7,738 nt of DNA, from the IMG/VR virus record IMGVR_UViG_2703718823_000003. One strand, given 5' to 3'. Made by a program: the position numbers and the translations under genes. Of the stretch, positions 2,424 through 7,738 are shown piece by piece; within the stretch, counting starts at the first letter, position 1; each line of letters begins with the position of its first letter. The notes under the pieces were generated by a model. The model saw nothing but the letters and a program-made list of their open reading frames with translations, was not told where the DNA came from and searched no databases. Source of the DNA: a virus. Its lineage: Duplodnaviria > Heunggongvirae > Uroviricota > Caudoviricetes.

Positions 2424-2436
2424 TTTTTTGTAAAAG

Positions 2437-2664
2437 CCCTCTACCCCATCTACCTGAATGAAATAAACGCATATTATTCAACATGATAAGTGGGTAGAGG
2501 GCTAGGTAGAAGGCTAATAAAACCTCTCTACCTCTTCTACCATGATTAAGATCGTTTGTGAGGGGCGGGTAGAGGATGGGTAGAGGGCCACGAAAGCCCT
2601 CTACCCATCTGAAAGCCGCGCCATTACTGACATGAAAGATGATTAGGTAGAGAGGTAGAGGAGG
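2437..2664. repeat. Iteron array, probable origin of replication
   Basis: About 11 copies of the core GGTAGAG(G) / (C)CTCTACC in both orientations, for example 2437-2445, 2446-2454, 2492-2501, 2504-2513, 2523-2532, 2533-2541, 2568-2576, 2579-2587, 2597-2606, 2646-2655, 2654-2661. The block 2568-2588 is an inverted copy of 2436-2454. Position directly 3' of the primase gene matches the usual pri-ori arrangement in PICI/P4-type elements. Confidence 0.7.
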
Positions 2665-2985: not shown

Positions 2986-3396
2986 ATGACAGCACAGATA
3001 GCAGCTTACGGGCGGCTGGTGGACGACCCGCAGGTAAAACAGACCAGCAAGGGCACACCAATGACGCTGGCACGTATGGCGGTATCGTTGCCATGTAGTC
3101 AGGCGCAGGATGGGCAGGCGACGTTATGGCTATCGGTCATCGCATTTGGTAAGCAGGCCGACTTCCTGGCTAAACATCAAAAAGGCGACGTTGCCAGCGT
3201 ATCCGGCACGATGCAGGTCAGCCAGTGGACCGGACAGAACGGGGAAACGCGGCAGGGTTATCAGGTTATTGCAGACAGCGTAATCAGTGCCCGTGCGGCA
3301 CGTCCTGGCGGGAACAGACGCAAAACCACAGGCACACAGGGTAATCAGCCACCAGCGGGAGACGATGACCCCTACGGTGATGATATTCAGTTCTGA
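2986..3396 (+). CDS. ssb: Single-stranded DNA-binding protein (SSB family, OB fold) with a divergent acidic C-terminal tail, 136 aa
   Basis: Translation aligns by eye with E. coli SSB: an N-terminal OB-fold pattern (GRLVDDPQV.. / LWLSVIAFGKQAD.. / VSQWTGQNGETRQGYQVIADSV), a Gly/Gln/Pro-rich linker, and an acidic tail DDDPYGDDIQF (compare DFDDDIPF). Comparison is from memory. Confidence 0.8.
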   Translation: MTAQIAAYGRLVDDPQVKQTSKGTPMTLARMAVSLPCSQAQDGQATLWLSVIAFGKQADFLAKHQKGDVASVSGTMQVSQWTGQNGETRQGYQVIADSVISARAARPGGNRRKTTGTQGNQPPAGDDDPYGDDIQF

Positions 3397-3679: not shown

Positions 3680-3685
3680 TCAACA

Positions 3686-3708
3686 GCCGGAGTAATCCGG
3701 CTTTTTTG
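3686..3708 (+). terminator. Rho-independent terminator
   Basis: Stem GCCGGA (3686-3691) / TCCGGC (3696-3701), loop GTAA, then a T6 run (3702-3707), immediately after the stop at 3677-3679. Confidence 0.6.
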
Positions 3709-3713
3709 TACCC

Positions 3714-3757
3714 AAAAAAAGCCCGATAAGTACAGGAGGCATCTTATCGGGCTTTTG
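3714..3757. terminator. Second hairpin, possibly a bidirectional terminator
   Basis: 10-bp stem GCCCGATAAG (3721-3730) / CTTATCGGGC (3743-3752) flanked by an A7 run upstream and TTTTG downstream. Confidence 0.45.
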
Positions 3758-3835
3758 CATATGAGGTTTTTTTTGGTGCACTGACACACATGATCGGGAT
3801 CATCATTTCATAATTTGCAACACAACTCAACATCA

Positions 3836-3863
3836 TTGCATAAAATGCAATCATGATTATAAT
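3836..3863 (+). promoter_or_regulatory. Sigma70-like promoter for the capsid operon
   Basis: -35 TTGCAT (3836-3841), 16-bp spacer, -10 TATAAT (3858-3863), about 55 nt upstream of the ATG at 3920. A dyad TTGCAT-AAA-ATGCAA (3836-3850) overlaps the -35, and the palindrome AATCATGATT (3849-3858) lies in the spacer. Confidence 0.45.
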
Positions 3864-3868
3864 CAGAT

Positions 3869-3884
3869 CTGGATGAACATCCAG
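3869..3884. promoter_or_regulatory. Candidate operator (7-bp inverted repeat) just downstream of the -10
   Basis: CTGGATG-AA-CATCCAG, with perfect 7-bp arms, sits at about the predicted transcription start. Confidence 0.3.
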
Positions 3885-3919
3885 TTATGATTTTTTAAGT
3901 CAAAGAGGAATTTCTTACT

Positions 3920-5983: not shown

Positions 5984-6211
5984 ACGGGTCCTTTCCGGCA
6001 TATGGACCCGTTACGGGGCGGCGACCTCGCGGTTTTTCGCTATTTATGAGATTTTTTGAGGGGGTGGTTGTTGTTTAATTGTTTGGTATATCTAATTGAT
6101 AAGTAAGGTAAAAATAAAATAAATACAACAACCTTACGATGTATTTTGATGTCATTAATGTGAAAAAATTCAATGATATCAAATGGTTTTGTAAAAACAC
6201 ATGGTTGTTGT
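5984..6211 (+). other. cos site 1 (lambda-type cosQ-flank, cosN, cosB-like region), + orientation
   Basis: TTTACGGGTCCTTTCCGG...GTTACG | GGGCGGCGACCT | CGCGG matches the lambda right-end/cosN/left-end junction as recalled; the 12-nt cohesive-end sequence GGGCGGCGACCT is at 6016-6027. Downstream there are three copies of GGTTGTTGT (6066-6074 direct, 6125-6133 inverted, 6203-6211 direct), spaced like lambda cosB R3/R2/R1. Confidence 0.7.
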
Positions 6212-6404: not shown

Positions 6405-6590
6405 ATGTCCGGTTTTAGTGTCTGTTTTTTGCGCATGTCCGGTTCATGGAAAGCATGTTTTTATATTTTTCATATGGTTAACTTGCAGAGAAACCGGACA
6501 TGGATCCCGGAAAATTTTCATAAATAGTGAAAACGCGCGAGGTCGCCGCCCCGTAACGGGCCATAATTCCAGGAAGGACCCGACGACACC
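6405..6590 (-). other. cos site 2 (lambda-type cosQ-flank, cosN, cosB-like region), inverted orientation
   Basis: The reverse complement of 6500-6590 reads ..GGGTCCTTCC.GG....CCCGTTACG | GGGCGGCGACCT | CGCGCGTTTTCACTATTTATGAAAATTTTCCGG, almost identical to the lambda cos left end as recalled; cosN is at 6540-6551 on the minus strand. Three copies of ATGTCCGGTT / AACCGGACAT lie at 6492-6501, 6435-6444 and 6405-6414, at R3/R2/R1-like distances. Confidence 0.7.
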
Positions 6591-6615: not shown

Positions 6616-6897
6616 ATGACAGAAGCCGAACTACTGCGATTAATCCGTCGCGTTGCCGGAATCAGCCAGCAGGCTGACGAACAGGCCACGCAGCCGGACA
6701 GCGTGACAGCCGAAAATTATGTGCGTGTTGTTGCGGAGGTGATGCGCCGTGATGGTATCCAGCTTAATGATGCGGATATGCGCGACATACGGATCCGCGT
6801 TCTTGAAATGCTGGCCTACCGTCGCCGCGTGCAGACGTACAGGGAAAAAGCAAAAATAACGTACCAGTGGAAGAAGCCGGAGCGATTACGGCGGTAA
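6616..6897 (+). CDS. hypothetical protein (93 aa), Arg-rich
   Basis: ATG 6616 with a GGGGG stretch about 5 nt upstream. The track ORF extends upstream to GTG 6418, through the cos sequence, which is unlikely. Ends at TAA 6895-6897. No motif recognised. Confidence 0.55.
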   Translation: MTEAELLRLIRRVAGISQQADEQATQPDSVTAENYVRVVAEVMRRDGIQLNDADMRDIRIRVLEMLAYRRRVQTYREKAKITYQWKKPERLRR

Positions 6898-6917
6898 CTT
6901 GCTGATATTCCCGATAA

Positions 6918-7157
6918 CGCAAAATTGCGCTCTGTCCTAACCCGTTGATATTTTCGGGAACAGCCAACGGCTGAGGCCGGAACAACGATTATCTTTCAGA
7001 TAGTCAGAGCTACGAAATTTTCGTAGTTTAATTACTCGCCAGTTTATCGTTAACCCGTTGATATTTTCGGAAACCTCAATTTGAGGAAGTCGGCGCGGTA
7101 ACTCGCTGAACTTTAAGCAAAGCGCAAAATTGCGCTTGCTGAATAATCATTATGATT
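6918..7157. repeat. Cluster of direct repeats and dyad symmetries (candidate regulatory region)
   Basis: 20-bp direct repeat TAACCCGTTGATATTTTCGG at 6938-6957 and 7051-7070. Dyad CGCAA-AA-TTGCG at 6918-6929 and, extended, at 7121-7136. Palindromes CTACGAAA-T-TTTCGTAG (7010-7026), CCTCAA-T-TTGAGG (7074-7086), AATCAT-T-ATGATT (7145-7157). Confidence 0.5.
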
Positions 7158-7213
7158 ACGCAGATGATTAAGGAATGACCGAAGGCGGAAATTCGCCTGT
7201 GGTTAATGGGGGA

Positions 7214-7433
7214 GTTGCAGATCTGCAACTCGACCATGAAACTACGGAAACTACCCGTAGTTTGGGTAGTAAGAGTAACACCCAGATTTTGGGGCTTACT
7301 CGTGATACCCAAATTTGGGGTATCGGTGGCAACCATAACGACTTTCGTTACGGTTGATGCTTTTACCCCATTGGTGGAGGCTGGGCGGCCTGCTGTGGGC
7401 TTTTCCACCATTGGTGGAAAGGTGCAGATCTGG
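7214..7433. other. Palindrome-rich, potentially highly structured segment (candidate ncRNA or protein-recognition DNA)
   Basis: Perfect 16-bp palindrome GTTGCAGATCTGCAAC (7214-7229) with a related copy TGCAGATCTG (7423-7432). Hairpin AAACTACGG / CCGTAGTTT (7239-7263) with a competing ACTACCC / GGGTAGT pairing. Hairpin GATACCC-AAATTTG-GGGTATC (7304-7324). Hairpin TAACGA-CTT-TCGTTA (7336-7350). CCATTGGTGG (7368-7377) can pair with CCACCATTGG (7405-7414). Confidence 0.3.
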
Positions 7434-7633
7434 ATCATCATTACGGTGATCAAGGGTATGTAAAACCCACCAGCCTGATTAACAGTTAACCGGAAAAAAA
7501 TTCCGGTAGGTGGGGATCCCCATATCGACATTAACGCCCCTCATGAATTAGCGCGCTTCCCCCTGGAAAGATGACCCGCCTGTATATTTCTTGTGTCTAT
7601 TTGTTCCACGTTGTTTCATACAGTGCACCGAAC

Positions 7634-7655
7634 GGTGTAGTCACTGGTGTAGTCA
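7634..7655. promoter_or_regulatory. Tandem 12-bp repeat in an AT-rich region at the window edge
   Basis: GGTGTAGTCACT GGTGTAGTCATT, followed by AT-rich sequence running to the end of the window. Likely a control region for something outside the window. Confidence 0.25.
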
Positions 7656-7738
7656 TTTTGCGATTTATGGCATTTTTTGTAGTGCAAATTATTTAATTAA
7701 ATCAATGCGTTAAGTGAAATTAGTTATATATAACAGCA

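What the first reader, a model, noticed from the sequence alone, without database searches (positions are those of the whole stretch)
7214..7515. Palindrome-dense segment with mutually exclusive hairpins and stop-free frames on both strands
Within about 300 bp there is a perfect 16-bp palindrome, a second copy of its core 200 bp away that could close a long-range helix, at least four local hairpins, and one site where two alternative stems compete (7239-7263 versus 7250-7270). Three ORFs overlap here in different frames (7175-7357 +, 7206-7463 +, 7076-7531 -), meaning stops are depleted. The pattern fits a structured ncRNA or switch-like RNA element, or DNA sites for a recombinase or nuclease. 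No RNA family is recognisable by eye.
Basis: seen in the sequence. Interest (0 to 1): 0.55.

Follow-up and report, generated by a model that had tools for sequence, protein, structure and literature searches.

The report
Palindrome array mimicking phage regulator genes
The palindrome-rich stretch is the non-coding right end of an E. coli phage satellite, and it is built from short symmetric DNA sites that also occur, one per gene, inside the anti-repressor-type regulator genes of many temperate phages, so it is most likely a landing pad for helper-phage DNA-binding proteins rather than a structured RNA.

Summary
Window 7000-7530 holds 10 hairpin-capable palindromes with stems of at least 7 bp, against 0.3 expected. 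The window is the right part of an ~11 kb EcCICFT073-like cos satellite (PICI) integrated in tqsA. The palindromes fill the non-coding gap (6895-7530) between the last gene and attR. The satellite's two lambda-type cos sites and its origin iterons lie elsewhere.

At least six of the palindromes are near-identical to short pieces inside phage regulator genes: Rha, Roi, an SSU5 Ant, KilA-N and P22_AR_N proteins. Each piece lies at codons ~24-65 of the N-terminal DNA-binding domain. Scans of whole HK620 and SfII genomes against satellite arrays hit only these genes, plus a cos site and two weak matches. In phage Rha genes the palindrome survives through compensatory, amino-acid-changing substitutions. 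Roi-type units sit in tandem, each a variable dyad 10 nt from an IHF consensus.

There is no Rfam match and no strand asymmetry, and the modules lie in mixed orientation, so a structured RNA is disfavoured.

Best reading (inferred): a multi-specificity array of binding sites for helper-phage regulators plus IHF, acting as a decoy or a sensor. No description was found in the searchable literature.

The parts
6895..6936 (-). Unit 0 of the array: a Rha-type dyad core (CGCAAAATTGCG, 6918-6934) beside a degenerate IHF-like motif. It starts at the stop codon of the last satellite gene.
   Evidence: 17/17 identity to the phi191 Rha gene at codons 57-63, antisense. The repeat is paired with 7095-7136 (D9/D10).
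6938..6980 (-). Unit 1: IHF consensus TATCAACGGGTTA (minus strand, 6938-6950) plus the dyad CAGCCAACGGCTG (6963-6975).
   Evidence: It has the same framework as Roi-type units in other satellites.
7010..7026 (.). Palindrome CTACGAAATTTTCGTAG (8-bp arms). No phage partner was identified.
   Evidence: It recurs in 5 other arrays.
7051..7098 (-). Unit 2, a Roi-type module: IHF consensus (7051-7063), 10 nt, then the dyad CCTCAATTTGAGG (7074-7086).
   Evidence: 25/25 identity to HK620 roi at codons 43-51, antisense. The phage-database hits all fall in roi/ant/KilA-annotated genes. In roi the homologous flank is also an IHF consensus.
7098..7140 (-). Unit 3, a Rha-type module: a degenerate IHF-like motif (7098-7110) plus the dyad AAGCGCAAAATTGCGCTT (7120-7137).
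   Evidence: 21/21 identity to the Rha gene of phi191 and Stx2a phages at codons 58-65.
7144..7158 (.). Palindrome TAATCATTATGATTA. Partner unknown.
   Evidence: It is present in 20 arrays.
7175..7205 (+). Imperfect dyad AGGCGGAAATTCGCCT (7184-7199), a relative of the site in a KilA-N gene variant.
   Evidence: The related satellite form GAGGGCGGAATTCCGCCTTC matches KilA-N gene L212 at nt 463-483. The similarity of the window copy itself was read by eye.
7207..7329 (.). The most conserved block of the array. It holds a 20-bp perfect palindrome (7212-7231, KilA-N type), four AAACTAC half-sites forming two exclusive dyads (7239-7270), CCCAGATTTTGGG (7281-7293) and GATACCC-N7-GGGTATC (7304-7324).
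   Evidence: 20/21 identity to SfII_46 KilA-N at codons 52-58, which code ELQICNS. The block is 93-100% identical in 34 unique satellite variants. The middle dyads were seen only in satellites.
7329..7357 (-). Dyad CAACCATAACGA-CTT-TCGTTACGGTTG, P22_AR_N type.
   Evidence: 20/22 identity to phi191_00005 (P22_AR N-terminal domain protein) at codons 52-59, antisense.
7359..7423 (-). SSU5-Ant-type module: a degenerate dyad (7366-7378) and the perfect 19-nt palindrome TTTCCACCATTGGTGGAAA (7402-7420) with its non-palindromic flank.
   Evidence: 29/29 identity to SSU5 ant at codons 24-33, which code FPPMVEKPTAG, antisense.
7424..7452 (.). CAGATCTG core repeat and a cluster of three GATC sites.
7460..7560 (.). 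A segment that travels with this integrase type: dyads ACCGGAA-AAAAA-TTCCGGT (7489-7507) and TGGGGATCCCCA (7511-7522). It probably belongs to the attP arm or int-proximal region.
   Evidence: It was found only in satellites, always beside the same att-proximal sequence. It matches alone in some genomes (H66).
7634..7655 (+). Direct repeat GGTGTAGTCA x2, probable integrase arm-type sites. This is context, not part of the array.
   Evidence: D16. It is conserved in L003, which sits at a different integration site.
7693..7722 (.). attR crossover region with the IHF consensus AATCAATGCGTTA (7700-7712). The host tqsA fragment starts at about 7723.

Best explanation
Window 6895-7530 is a non-coding array of distinct dyad-symmetric protein-binding sites, carried at the attR end of an EcCICFT073-like cos phage satellite.

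Each site copies a 'private' palindrome that temperate phages carry once, inside the codons for the N-terminal DNA-binding domain of an anti-repressor-type regulator. The families are Rha/Roi, KilA-N and P22_AR_N. Roi/Rha-type units also keep an IHF site 10 bp from the dyad.

Proposed mechanism (inferred, not shown):
1. When a helper phage infects or is induced, its regulators are made.
2. These proteins normally bind the site in their own gene. With host IHF, they also bind the matching sites on the satellite.
3. Because the satellite carries many specificities, and amplifies after induction, the array works as a broad-range sink (decoy) for helper regulators, or alternatively as a helper sensor.

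I favour the decoy or interference role, because the array lies downstream of every satellite gene.

Shown: the sequence relationships, their positions, dyad covariation, the IHF consensus, and the absence of RNA-specific signals.
Inferred: the binding itself and its consequence.
For: 1. Palindromes are about 30-fold enriched.

2. The region is the last intergenic stretch of a satellite that has an integrase, a primase, a major capsid protein, a decoration protein and two lambda-type cos sites. cos and the origin iterons lie elsewhere.

3. Window modules match phage genes:
- roi, 25/25
- Rha, 21/21 and 17/17
- SSU5 ant, 29/29
- KilA-N, 20/21
- P22_AR_N, 20/22
All lie at codons 24-65 of the N-terminal domain.

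4. Unbiased scans of satellite arrays against whole phage genomes:
- HK620 (38 kb), at E<=0.01: hits only in roi (44 nt, 100%, E 2e-19) and in the KilA-like hkbK (49 nt, 96%, E 1e-17).
- SfII (41 kb), at E<=0.01: strong hits only in the KilA-N gene and the cos site, plus two weak matches.

5. Each of the two palindromes occurs exactly once in HK620.

6. In 15 distinct phage Rha sequences the dyad is 90% paired, and one pair switches between U-A (8 sequences) and G-C (7) through two non-synonymous changes. No shuffle out of 500 reaches the observed covariation score. KilA-N variants that are 89% identical differ mainly in the cassette holding the dyad, and each has its own dyad.

7. Satellites hold both Rha dyad variants. 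About 55 Roi-type units share a fixed framework, with at least 9 different self-complementary cores centred 17 nt from an IHF consensus.

8. From memory: Clerget and Boccard 1996 (J Bacteriol 178:4077) reported that HK022 Roi binds a site within its own gene, next to an IHF site that stabilises the binding.

9. In some relatives the same non-coding region also holds a helper-type cos site. That fits a region which collects cis sites for helper proteins.
Against: - No binding data exist for any of these sites here. The Roi precedent is recalled from an abstract that I could not re-read.
- P22_AR_N is not an established DNA-binding domain.
- About half of the palindromes (7010, 7144, 7239-7324, 7489-7522) have no phage partner in what I could search.
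- Some matches extend 20-30 nt beyond the dyad. That points to captured fragments rather than selection on a binding site alone.
- No promoter is placed where a sensor role could act on it, and a decoy role is pure inference.
- The IHF assignment rests on a degenerate consensus, and the arrays were partly retrieved using that motif.
Confidence: 0.5

Rival explanations
1. The region is inert debris. It consists of scars of illegitimate or short-homology recombination between the satellite and phage regulator genes, whose palindromes are recombination-prone. The pieces pile up in a dispensable end region and have no function there.
For: - Matches include non-palindromic coding flanks of up to 44-49 nt.
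- Modules are shuffled mosaically among satellites.
- Units keep the reading frame of the source genes, but some carry stops.
- The region is non-coding and lies where PICIs carry variable cargo.
Against: - Only the dyad-bearing piece of each gene is retained, out of whole phage genomes.
- Dyad symmetry is kept in about 55 diversified units, at a fixed distance from the IHF-like motif.
- The 7207-7329 block is 93-100% conserved across satellites that differ in integration site and packaging module.
- In some units Rha-type cores sit in a satellite-type framework rather than the phage framework, so the core alone is matched.
Confidence: 0.17
2. The region is an RNA element: a read-through 3' UTR or sRNA precursor made of hairpins. 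These pair by kissing loops with rha, roi and ant mRNAs of co-resident phages (an antisense array), or act as a structural switch.
For: - There is no terminator between the last gene and the array.
- Rha-, Roi-, Ant- and AR_N-type modules are all antisense relative to the satellite's direction of transcription.
- Predicted folding is very stable, z about -7.
- From my own knowledge, anti-repressor genes are classically controlled by antisense RNAs (P22 sar, P1 c4).
Against: - There is no Rfam hit.
- The minus strand folds equally well.
- There is no G.U strand bias, and half of the mismatches are non-wobble.
- Dyads are perfect through the centre.
- KilA-N-type modules are in sense orientation, including an unambiguous 49-nt match.
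- The IHF consensus is conserved, which means nothing for an RNA.
- The stems within the finding do not covary.
Confidence: 0.12
3. The region is an extended accessory arm of the attachment site. IHF sites and dyads build a nucleoprotein scaffold that controls excision or integration, possibly making it helper-dependent in the manner of a recombination directionality factor.
For: - The array abuts attR on the arm distal to int, where lambda carries its Xis, Fis and IHF sites (own knowledge).
- IHF consensus sites are present.
- The 7460-7560 segment co-varies with the att-proximal sequence.
- Integrase arm-type repeats lie at 7634-7655.
Against: - Most of the array lies 200-800 bp from the crossover, well beyond known attP arms.
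- The same modules occur in satellites at other integration sites, whose att-proximal sequence differs in at least two cases.
- This reading does not explain the identity to phage regulator genes.
Confidence: 0.1
4. One of the overlapping ORFs (minus strand 7076-7531, 151 aa; plus strand 7206-7463) is a real gene.
For: - The minus-strand open frame is unusually long: 154 codons, against a shuffle 95th percentile of 117.
- One genome annotates a hypothetical protein under a match (H38).
Against: - There is no Pfam hit and no tblastn hit in phages.
- It is not annotated in the identical RefSeq locus.
- Open-frame length varies from 52 to 143 codons among related arrays.
- Homologous units carry in-frame stops.
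- The 'protein' would be a chain of 7-16 aa snippets taken from unrelated domains.
Confidence: 0.03

Closest known systems
HK022 Roi and its binding site inside the roi gene, next to an IHF site (Clerget and Boccard 1996, recalled from memory)
   Same: Window 7051-7098 is a near-copy of the roi segment that holds a 13-bp dyad and, 10 nt away, an IHF consensus. The architecture of dyad plus IHF site is the same.
   Different: Here the site is outside any gene, on a satellite, and multiplied into tandem units with many different dyad cores. Binding was not tested. I could not verify that the published footprint coincides with this dyad.
Lambda O protein and the ori iterons inside the O gene
   Same: A DNA-binding protein has dyad-symmetric sites with an A/T-rich centre inside its own coding sequence, so specificity and site are inherited together (own knowledge). 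The KilA-N 'cassette' shows the same linkage.
   Different: The partners are regulators, not initiators. There is one site per gene rather than four iterons. The satellite's own origin iterons are a different sequence at 2430-2660.
Satellite P4 cis elements that respond to helper P2 proteins (Cox and Ogr/delta-dependent promoters)
   Same: A satellite carries DNA sites recognised by helper-encoded DNA-binding proteins (own knowledge).
   Different: P4's sites sit at promoters and serve one helper family. Here there are at least 12 different dyads, no associated promoter, and the sites are copies of intragenic phage sequences.
EcCICFT073-type cos PICIs (Fillol-Salom 2018 and 2019; PMC6092414, PMC6739421)
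   Same: The element as a whole: an integrase, a primase, two cos sites with lambda-like cosQ/cosN, and chromosomal integration.
   Different: In the passages I read, those papers discuss cos and Rpp. I found no mention of a palindrome array. The 93-aa gene upstream of the array was not shown to be Rpp.
Titration or decoy site clusters (E. coli datA, P1 incA iterons)
   Same: Clustered binding sites that act by sequestering a DNA-binding protein (own knowledge). This is the proposed mode of action.
   Different: Those clusters repeat one specificity and act on the replicon's own initiator. This array combines many specificities aimed at another genome's proteins.
CRISPR arrays
   Same: An array of short sequences identical to pieces of phage genomes, carried by a genetic element that interacts with those phages.
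   Different: There are no regular direct repeats and no cas genes. The pieces are palindromic and drawn from one class of gene.

Membership tests
Any Rfam RNA family | Match to a covariance model | tested here: not met
   cmscan of the whole window at E<=1 gave four weak hits, none in 6900-7738.
Structured RNA in general | Strand-specific structure: one strand folds better, and G.U is tolerated on the transcribed strand only | tested here: not met
   z is -7.3 on the plus strand and -7.9 on the minus strand. Mismatches: G.T 12, A.C 9, other 22.
Structured RNA in general | Compensatory changes in the stems of the finding across homologues | tested here: inconclusive
   In 34 unique satellite variants nearly all pairs never vary. 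There is one A-T to C-G double change in 7307/7321, with 4 A.G intermediates.
Lambda-type cos site | cosQ and cosN sequences | tested here: not met
   The exact cosN GGGCGGCGACCTCG occurs at 6016-6029 (plus strand) and 6538-6551 (minus strand), not in the finding.
Replication origin of the satellite | Iterons adjacent to the initiator/primase gene | tested here: not met
   GGGTAGAGGGC-type iterons lie at 2430-2660. The array motifs occur in satellites that have either a primase or a RepA helicase.
attP arm of a tyrosine integrase | Arm-type direct repeats and IHF sites within about 200 bp of the crossover | tested here: not met
   The arm-type repeats are at 7634-7655 and the crossover at about 7700-7712. 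The finding lies 190-500 bp away. Only 7460-7560 plausibly belongs to the arm.
Roi-type intragenic operator (dyad plus IHF site) | Sequence homology to the roi segment, and a dyad at a fixed distance from WATCAANNNNTTR | tested here: met
   25/25 identity. The dyad is 10 nt from TATCAACGGGTTA, and roi has AATCAATAACTTA at the same place.
Roi-type intragenic operator (dyad plus IHF site) | Binding by the cognate phage protein and by IHF | not testable with these tools
   This needs EMSA, footprinting or ChIP. The only precedent is recalled from the literature (one search failed to fetch it).
EcCICFT073-like cos PICI (the element that carries the array) | Integrase, primase/replication module, lambda-like cos sites, no terminase, portal, tail or lysis genes annotated, about 10-15 kb, flanked by a split host gene | tested here: met
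   Annotation of the identical locus in NZ_CP075697.1. cos sites are.
CRISPR array | Regularly spaced identical direct repeats | tested here: not met
   The direct-repeat families are short, irregular and few.
REP/BIME- or MITE-type dispersed palindromes | Many dispersed copies per genome | tested here: not met
   The median is 1 place per genome and the maximum 6, in 1314 of 5426 E. coli genomes. In every locus inspected the match lay at a satellite end.
Protein-coding gene | Conserved ORF with family membership | tested here: not met
   No Pfam hit, no tblastn hit in phages, no conserved ORF length, and stops in homologous units.

The most novel reading that the evidence does not exclude
Two linked claims.

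(a) Temperate-phage regulators of the Rha/Roi, KilA-N and P22_AR_N families each carry a private operator embedded in the codons of their own DNA-binding domain. The operator co-evolves with that domain as one swappable specificity cassette.

(b) Phage satellites have assembled heritable libraries of these private operators. Such a library is a non-coding, multi-specificity 'catalogue of helpers'. It lets one satellite capture or sense the regulators of many different phages. Conceptually it is a protein-directed counterpart of a spacer array, and a new layer of satellite-helper conflict.
Probability: 0.3. Interest if true: 0.85.

Novelty: new variant of a known kind. Interest (0 to 1): 0.72.

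Why it matters
How Gram-negative PICIs perceive and manipulate their helpers is still largely open. If the array binds helper regulators, satellite-helper interaction would run through a non-coding DNA element that can be read from sequence. Helper range could then be predicted by matching array dyads to phage regulator genes.

The finding also gives the abundant but functionally obscure Rha, KilA-N and Ant-N 'anti-repressor-like' proteins a concrete candidate DNA target, inside their own genes, which can be tested directly.

The array or parts of it occur in about a quarter of complete E. coli genomes (1314 of 5426), including STEC lineages. Any effect on prophage induction could therefore bear on Shiga-toxin phage biology.

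Tried and rejected
- Rfam scan: nothing in the region.
- cos hypothesis: rejected. Two lambda-type cos sites lie at about 6016 and 6545.
- Origin hypothesis: rejected. Iterons lie at 2430-2660.
- Megablast against phages: no match. Only the sensitive blastn mode revealed the short intragenic matches.
- Search for the 93-aa upstream protein in the PDB, to call it Rpp: no hit.
- The search for related loci in genome contigs with that protein: only one locus.
- Roi and KilA-N locus sets from IMG/VR were 98-100% identical, so they were useless for covariation. Only the Rha set was diverse enough.
- Pattern scans for the 7239-7263 dyad and the 7511-7522 dyad: essentially only satellites plus chance hits.
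- The GATACCC-N7-GGGTATC pattern was too short to be specific.
- tblastn of the minus-strand peptide across 7180-7330: no match.
- Integron attC, LexA and CRP boxes, and lambda boxB: considered by eye and dropped for lack of the defining motifs.
- Literature searches for the sequences themselves and for PICI, palindrome and anti-repressor terms: no description found.
- The Clerget and Boccard paper could not be retrieved.
Full report
**1. What the window is**

The last 839 bases are 100% identical to E. coli STEC2018-607 (NZ_CP075697.1). There they form the right end of an ~11 kb island inserted into tqsA. The island carries:
- a tyrosine integrase and a small HTH regulator
- Icd-like and Ash genes, and a DUF4222 gene
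- a P4-type primase
- PerC
- a major capsid protein and a head-decoration protein
- two small hypothetical genes

It is followed by the displaced 5' piece of tqsA.

Gene order in the window is the same, though coordinates to the left are shifted by an indel.

The window contains two lambda-type cos sites in inverted orientation. The exact cosN GGGCGGCGACCTCG occurs at 6016-6029 on the plus strand and at 6538-6551 on the minus strand, each with a cosQ-like GGGTCCT. That is the 'two cos sites' layout described for EcCICFT073-type PICIs (PMC6739421).

Iterons of the GGGTAGAGGGC type at 2430-2660, just after the primase gene, are the likely origin.

The finding lies in the only long non-coding stretch left. 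It runs from the stop codon of the last gene (6895) to the integrase arm-type repeats (GGTGTAGTCA x2, 7634-7655) and the att crossover at about 7700.

**2. Checking the observation**

The central palindrome is 20 bp, not 16.

Palindromes with stems of at least 7 bp and loops of at most 8 nt number 10 in 7000-7530. Dinucleotide shuffles give 0.29, and 0 of 500 shuffles reach the observed number. Almost everywhere else in the window the count per 500 bp is 0-1.

**3. The region is a shared, mosaic satellite feature**

Parts of 6900-7560 occur in 1295-1314 of 5426 complete E. coli genomes, with a median of one place per genome. Different segments appear in different combinations.

The three loci I opened lie at other integration sites: tRNA-Ile, next to phoQ, and next to yejO. 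They have other replication modules (primase or RepA helicase) and other packaging modules (MCP plus decoration protein, or TerS plus MCP). In each, the match again lies between the last satellite gene and the element's end, and the stretch is again palindrome-dense.

Forty-four IMG/VR loci retrieved with one array motif gave 46 unique arrays and more than 50 distinct palindromes.

**4. The key result: the palindromes are copies of sites inside phage regulator genes**

Megablast against 50,697 phage records found nothing. The sensitive mode found short matches, and every annotated one fell in a gene called roi, ant, anti-repressor, KilA, Rha or 'regulatory protein'.

For the window itself:

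| Window coordinates | Identity | Phage gene | Codons | Orientation |
|---|---|---|---|---|
| 7065-7089 | 25/25 | HK620 roi | 43-51 | antisense |
| 7116-7136 | 21/21 | phi191/Stx2a-phage Rha | 58-65 | antisense |
| 6918-6934 | 17/17 | phi191/Stx2a-phage Rha | 57-63 | antisense |
| 7392-7420 | 29/29 | SSU5 ant | 24-33 | antisense |
| 7212-7232 | 20/21 | SfII_46 (KilA-N) | 52-58 | palindromic, ambiguous |
| 7329-7350 | 20/22 | phi191_00005 (P22_AR_N) | 52-59 | antisense |

Pfam confirms Phage_pRha for the phi191 Rha and for Roi, a sub-threshold pRha match for the SSU5 Ant, and KilA-N for SfII_46. The record itself annotates a P22_AR N-terminal domain for phi191_00005.

The imperfect dyad at 7184-7199 resembles the site of a KilA-N variant, L212.

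Two unbiased controls support the pattern:
- Blasting about 50-100 satellite arrays against the whole 38-kb HK620 genome gave only two hits at E<=0.01. One is in roi (44 nt, 100%). The other is in hkbK, a P1-KilA-like gene (49 nt, 96%, codons ~53-69).
- The same scan of the 41-kb SfII genome gave its strong hits in the KilA-N gene and the cos site, plus two weak matches that are probably chance.

In HK620 each of the two dyads occurs exactly once, inside its own gene.

**5. The palindromes are under selection in the phages**

Among 52 unique Rha genes (63-100% amino-acid identity), the dyad AGCGCAA-TT-TTGCGCT, coding AERNFAL, is replaced in another clade by AAGCTCAA-CT-TTGAGCTT, coding TKLNFEL. 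That is CGC/GCG changing to CTC/GAG, two amino-acid-changing substitutions that restore the pair.

On 15 distinct sequences, 90% of cells are paired, against 19-53% when the partner column is slid. One pair is U-A in 8 sequences and G-C in 7. No shuffle out of 500 reaches the observed covariation score.

Two KilA-N proteins that are 89% identical differ mainly in one cassette. Each version of the cassette has its own dyad at the same codon position.

Satellite arrays contain both Rha variants, AAGCGCAAAATTGCGCTT and AGCTCAAAATTGAGCT.

**6. Architecture of the Roi/Rha-type part**

On the minus strand the left half of the array is a set of tandem units with this layout: [ccgcgccga] - [13-15 nt dyad] - [ttccgaaaa] - [(T/A)ATCAACNNGTTA].

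The last motif fits the IHF consensus WATCAANNNNTTR (own knowledge). In roi the homologous bases, AATCAATAACTTA, fit it too.

About 55 distinct units were collected. The framework is constant, while the core takes at least 9 different self-complementary forms, all centred 17 nt from the motif. Pairing at that centre is 0.6-0.8 for positions 2-5, against mostly 0.05-0.5 at shifted centres.

As I recall it, this matches the arrangement reported for HK022 Roi: a binding site inside its own gene, next to an IHF site that stabilises the complex (Clerget and Boccard 1996; not retrievable).

Some units carry in-frame stop codons, so the framework is not conserved because it is translated.

**7. RNA or DNA?**

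Several results point to double-stranded DNA symmetry rather than an RNA structure:
- There is no Rfam match.
- Both strands fold equally far below shuffles.
- Among 43 internal mismatches in imperfect dyads, 12 are G.T on the plus strand, 9 are A.C, and 22 are non-wobble.
- Several dyads are perfect through the centre.
- Rha-, Roi-, Ant- and AR_N-type modules are antisense, but KilA-N-type modules are sense, relative to the satellite's genes. This includes an unambiguous 49-nt match.
- A conserved IHF consensus has no meaning in RNA.

Within the finding's own stems there is almost no variation among 34 satellite variants. One A-T to C-G double change occurs in the 7304-7324 dyad.

**8. The ORFs**

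The long open frames follow from the origin of the modules. The modules are coding-sequence fragments in both orientations, and a palindrome is open on both strands if it is open on one.

No frame has a Pfam hit or a phage tblastn hit. RefSeq annotates none in the identical locus. Open-frame length is not conserved among arrays.

**9. Interpretation**

The following is shown:
- A satellite end region is packed with dyads.
- Those dyads are sequence-identical to single, covarying, intragenic dyads of phage Rha/Roi, KilA-N and P22_AR_N regulator genes.
- An IHF consensus sits next to the Roi/Rha-type ones.

The following is inferred:
- The phage proteins bind these dyads, giving own-gene operators analogous to lambda O and its ori iterons.
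- The satellite array therefore binds the regulators of many potential helpers.

The array lies downstream of all satellite genes and has no promoter-like site. Some satellites carry a block twice, and satellites amplify after induction. For these reasons I favour a sink or decoy role that perturbs helper regulation. A sensor role or an excision-scaffold role remains possible.

In some relatives the same region also holds a helper-type (SfII-like) cos site. This fits the idea that the region collects cis sites for helper proteins.

Rivals, in decreasing order of confidence:
- functionless recombination debris
- an antisense or structured RNA
- an extended att arm
- a real gene

**10. Novelty**

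Full-text searches for the sequences and for the concept found no description. The searchable library is incomplete, so this is absence of evidence only.

The general kind is known: clustered binding sites, and satellite cis elements that respond to helper proteins. What would be new is the multi-specificity composition, the derivation from intragenic sites of one class of phage gene, and the covarying own-gene dyads themselves.

Noticed in passing
window 5985-6050 (+) and 6510-6580 (-): Two lambda-type cos sites in inverted orientation. Each has a cosQ-like GGGTCCT and the exact cosN GGGCGGCGACCTCG. They flank an AT-rich stretch of about 450 bp that would hold both cosB regions.
   Followed up: partly
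window 2430-2660: At least 8 copies, in both orientations, of GGGTAGAGGGC-type iterons directly after the primase gene. This is the probable satellite origin. The reference genome seems to carry about 424 nt more than the window somewhere between the primase gene and the SSB-like ORF.
   Followed up: partly
window 3680-3900: Two terminator hairpins are followed by a second, smaller cluster of palindromes (TTGCATAAAATGCAA, TGATTATAATCA, CTGGATGAACATCCAG, GATCGGGATC), upstream of the capsid operon. This may be an operator region. It was not compared with phage genes.
   Followed up: no
window 7214-7520: There are five GATC (Dam) sites, three of them at palindrome centres (AGATCT twice, GGATCC once). 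The phage SfII copy of the 20-bp palindrome has GATTTG instead, as do 6 of 34 satellite variants. Methylation could modulate binding.
   Followed up: partly
window 7239-7270: The 'competing hairpins' are four 7-mer half-sites, AAACTAC gg AAACTAC cc GTAGTTT gg GTAGT (two direct, then two inverted). They are invariant in satellites and absent from the phage records I could search.
   Followed up: partly
L002 6190-6290; L299 and relatives; SfII 23-105: Some related satellites carry, in the same 3' non-coding region, an 83-nt stretch 93% identical to the left end (cos region) of phage SfII. Satellites of this family therefore differ in which helper cos type they carry.
   Followed up: partly
L443 (HK620) 13470 and 18290: The roi dyad and the hkbK (KilA-like) dyad each occur exactly once in the whole phage genome, inside their own genes.
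   Followed up: yes
L054-L133 (phage Rha genes), about 10 nt downstream of the dyad: The stretch AACAATGAGTTACAGAA (coding NNELQN) is nearly invariant at the nucleotide level, including synonymous positions, across Rha genes that are only 63-78% identical. It resembles the IHF consensus with one mismatch.
   Followed up: no
window 2986-3396: An SSB-like ORF of 136 aa is intact in the window. The identical-end reference genome annotates the corresponding gene as frameshifted.
   Followed up: no
L296, L301, L310: These satellite contigs carry the 7207-7329 block twice, about 435 bp apart.
   Followed up: no
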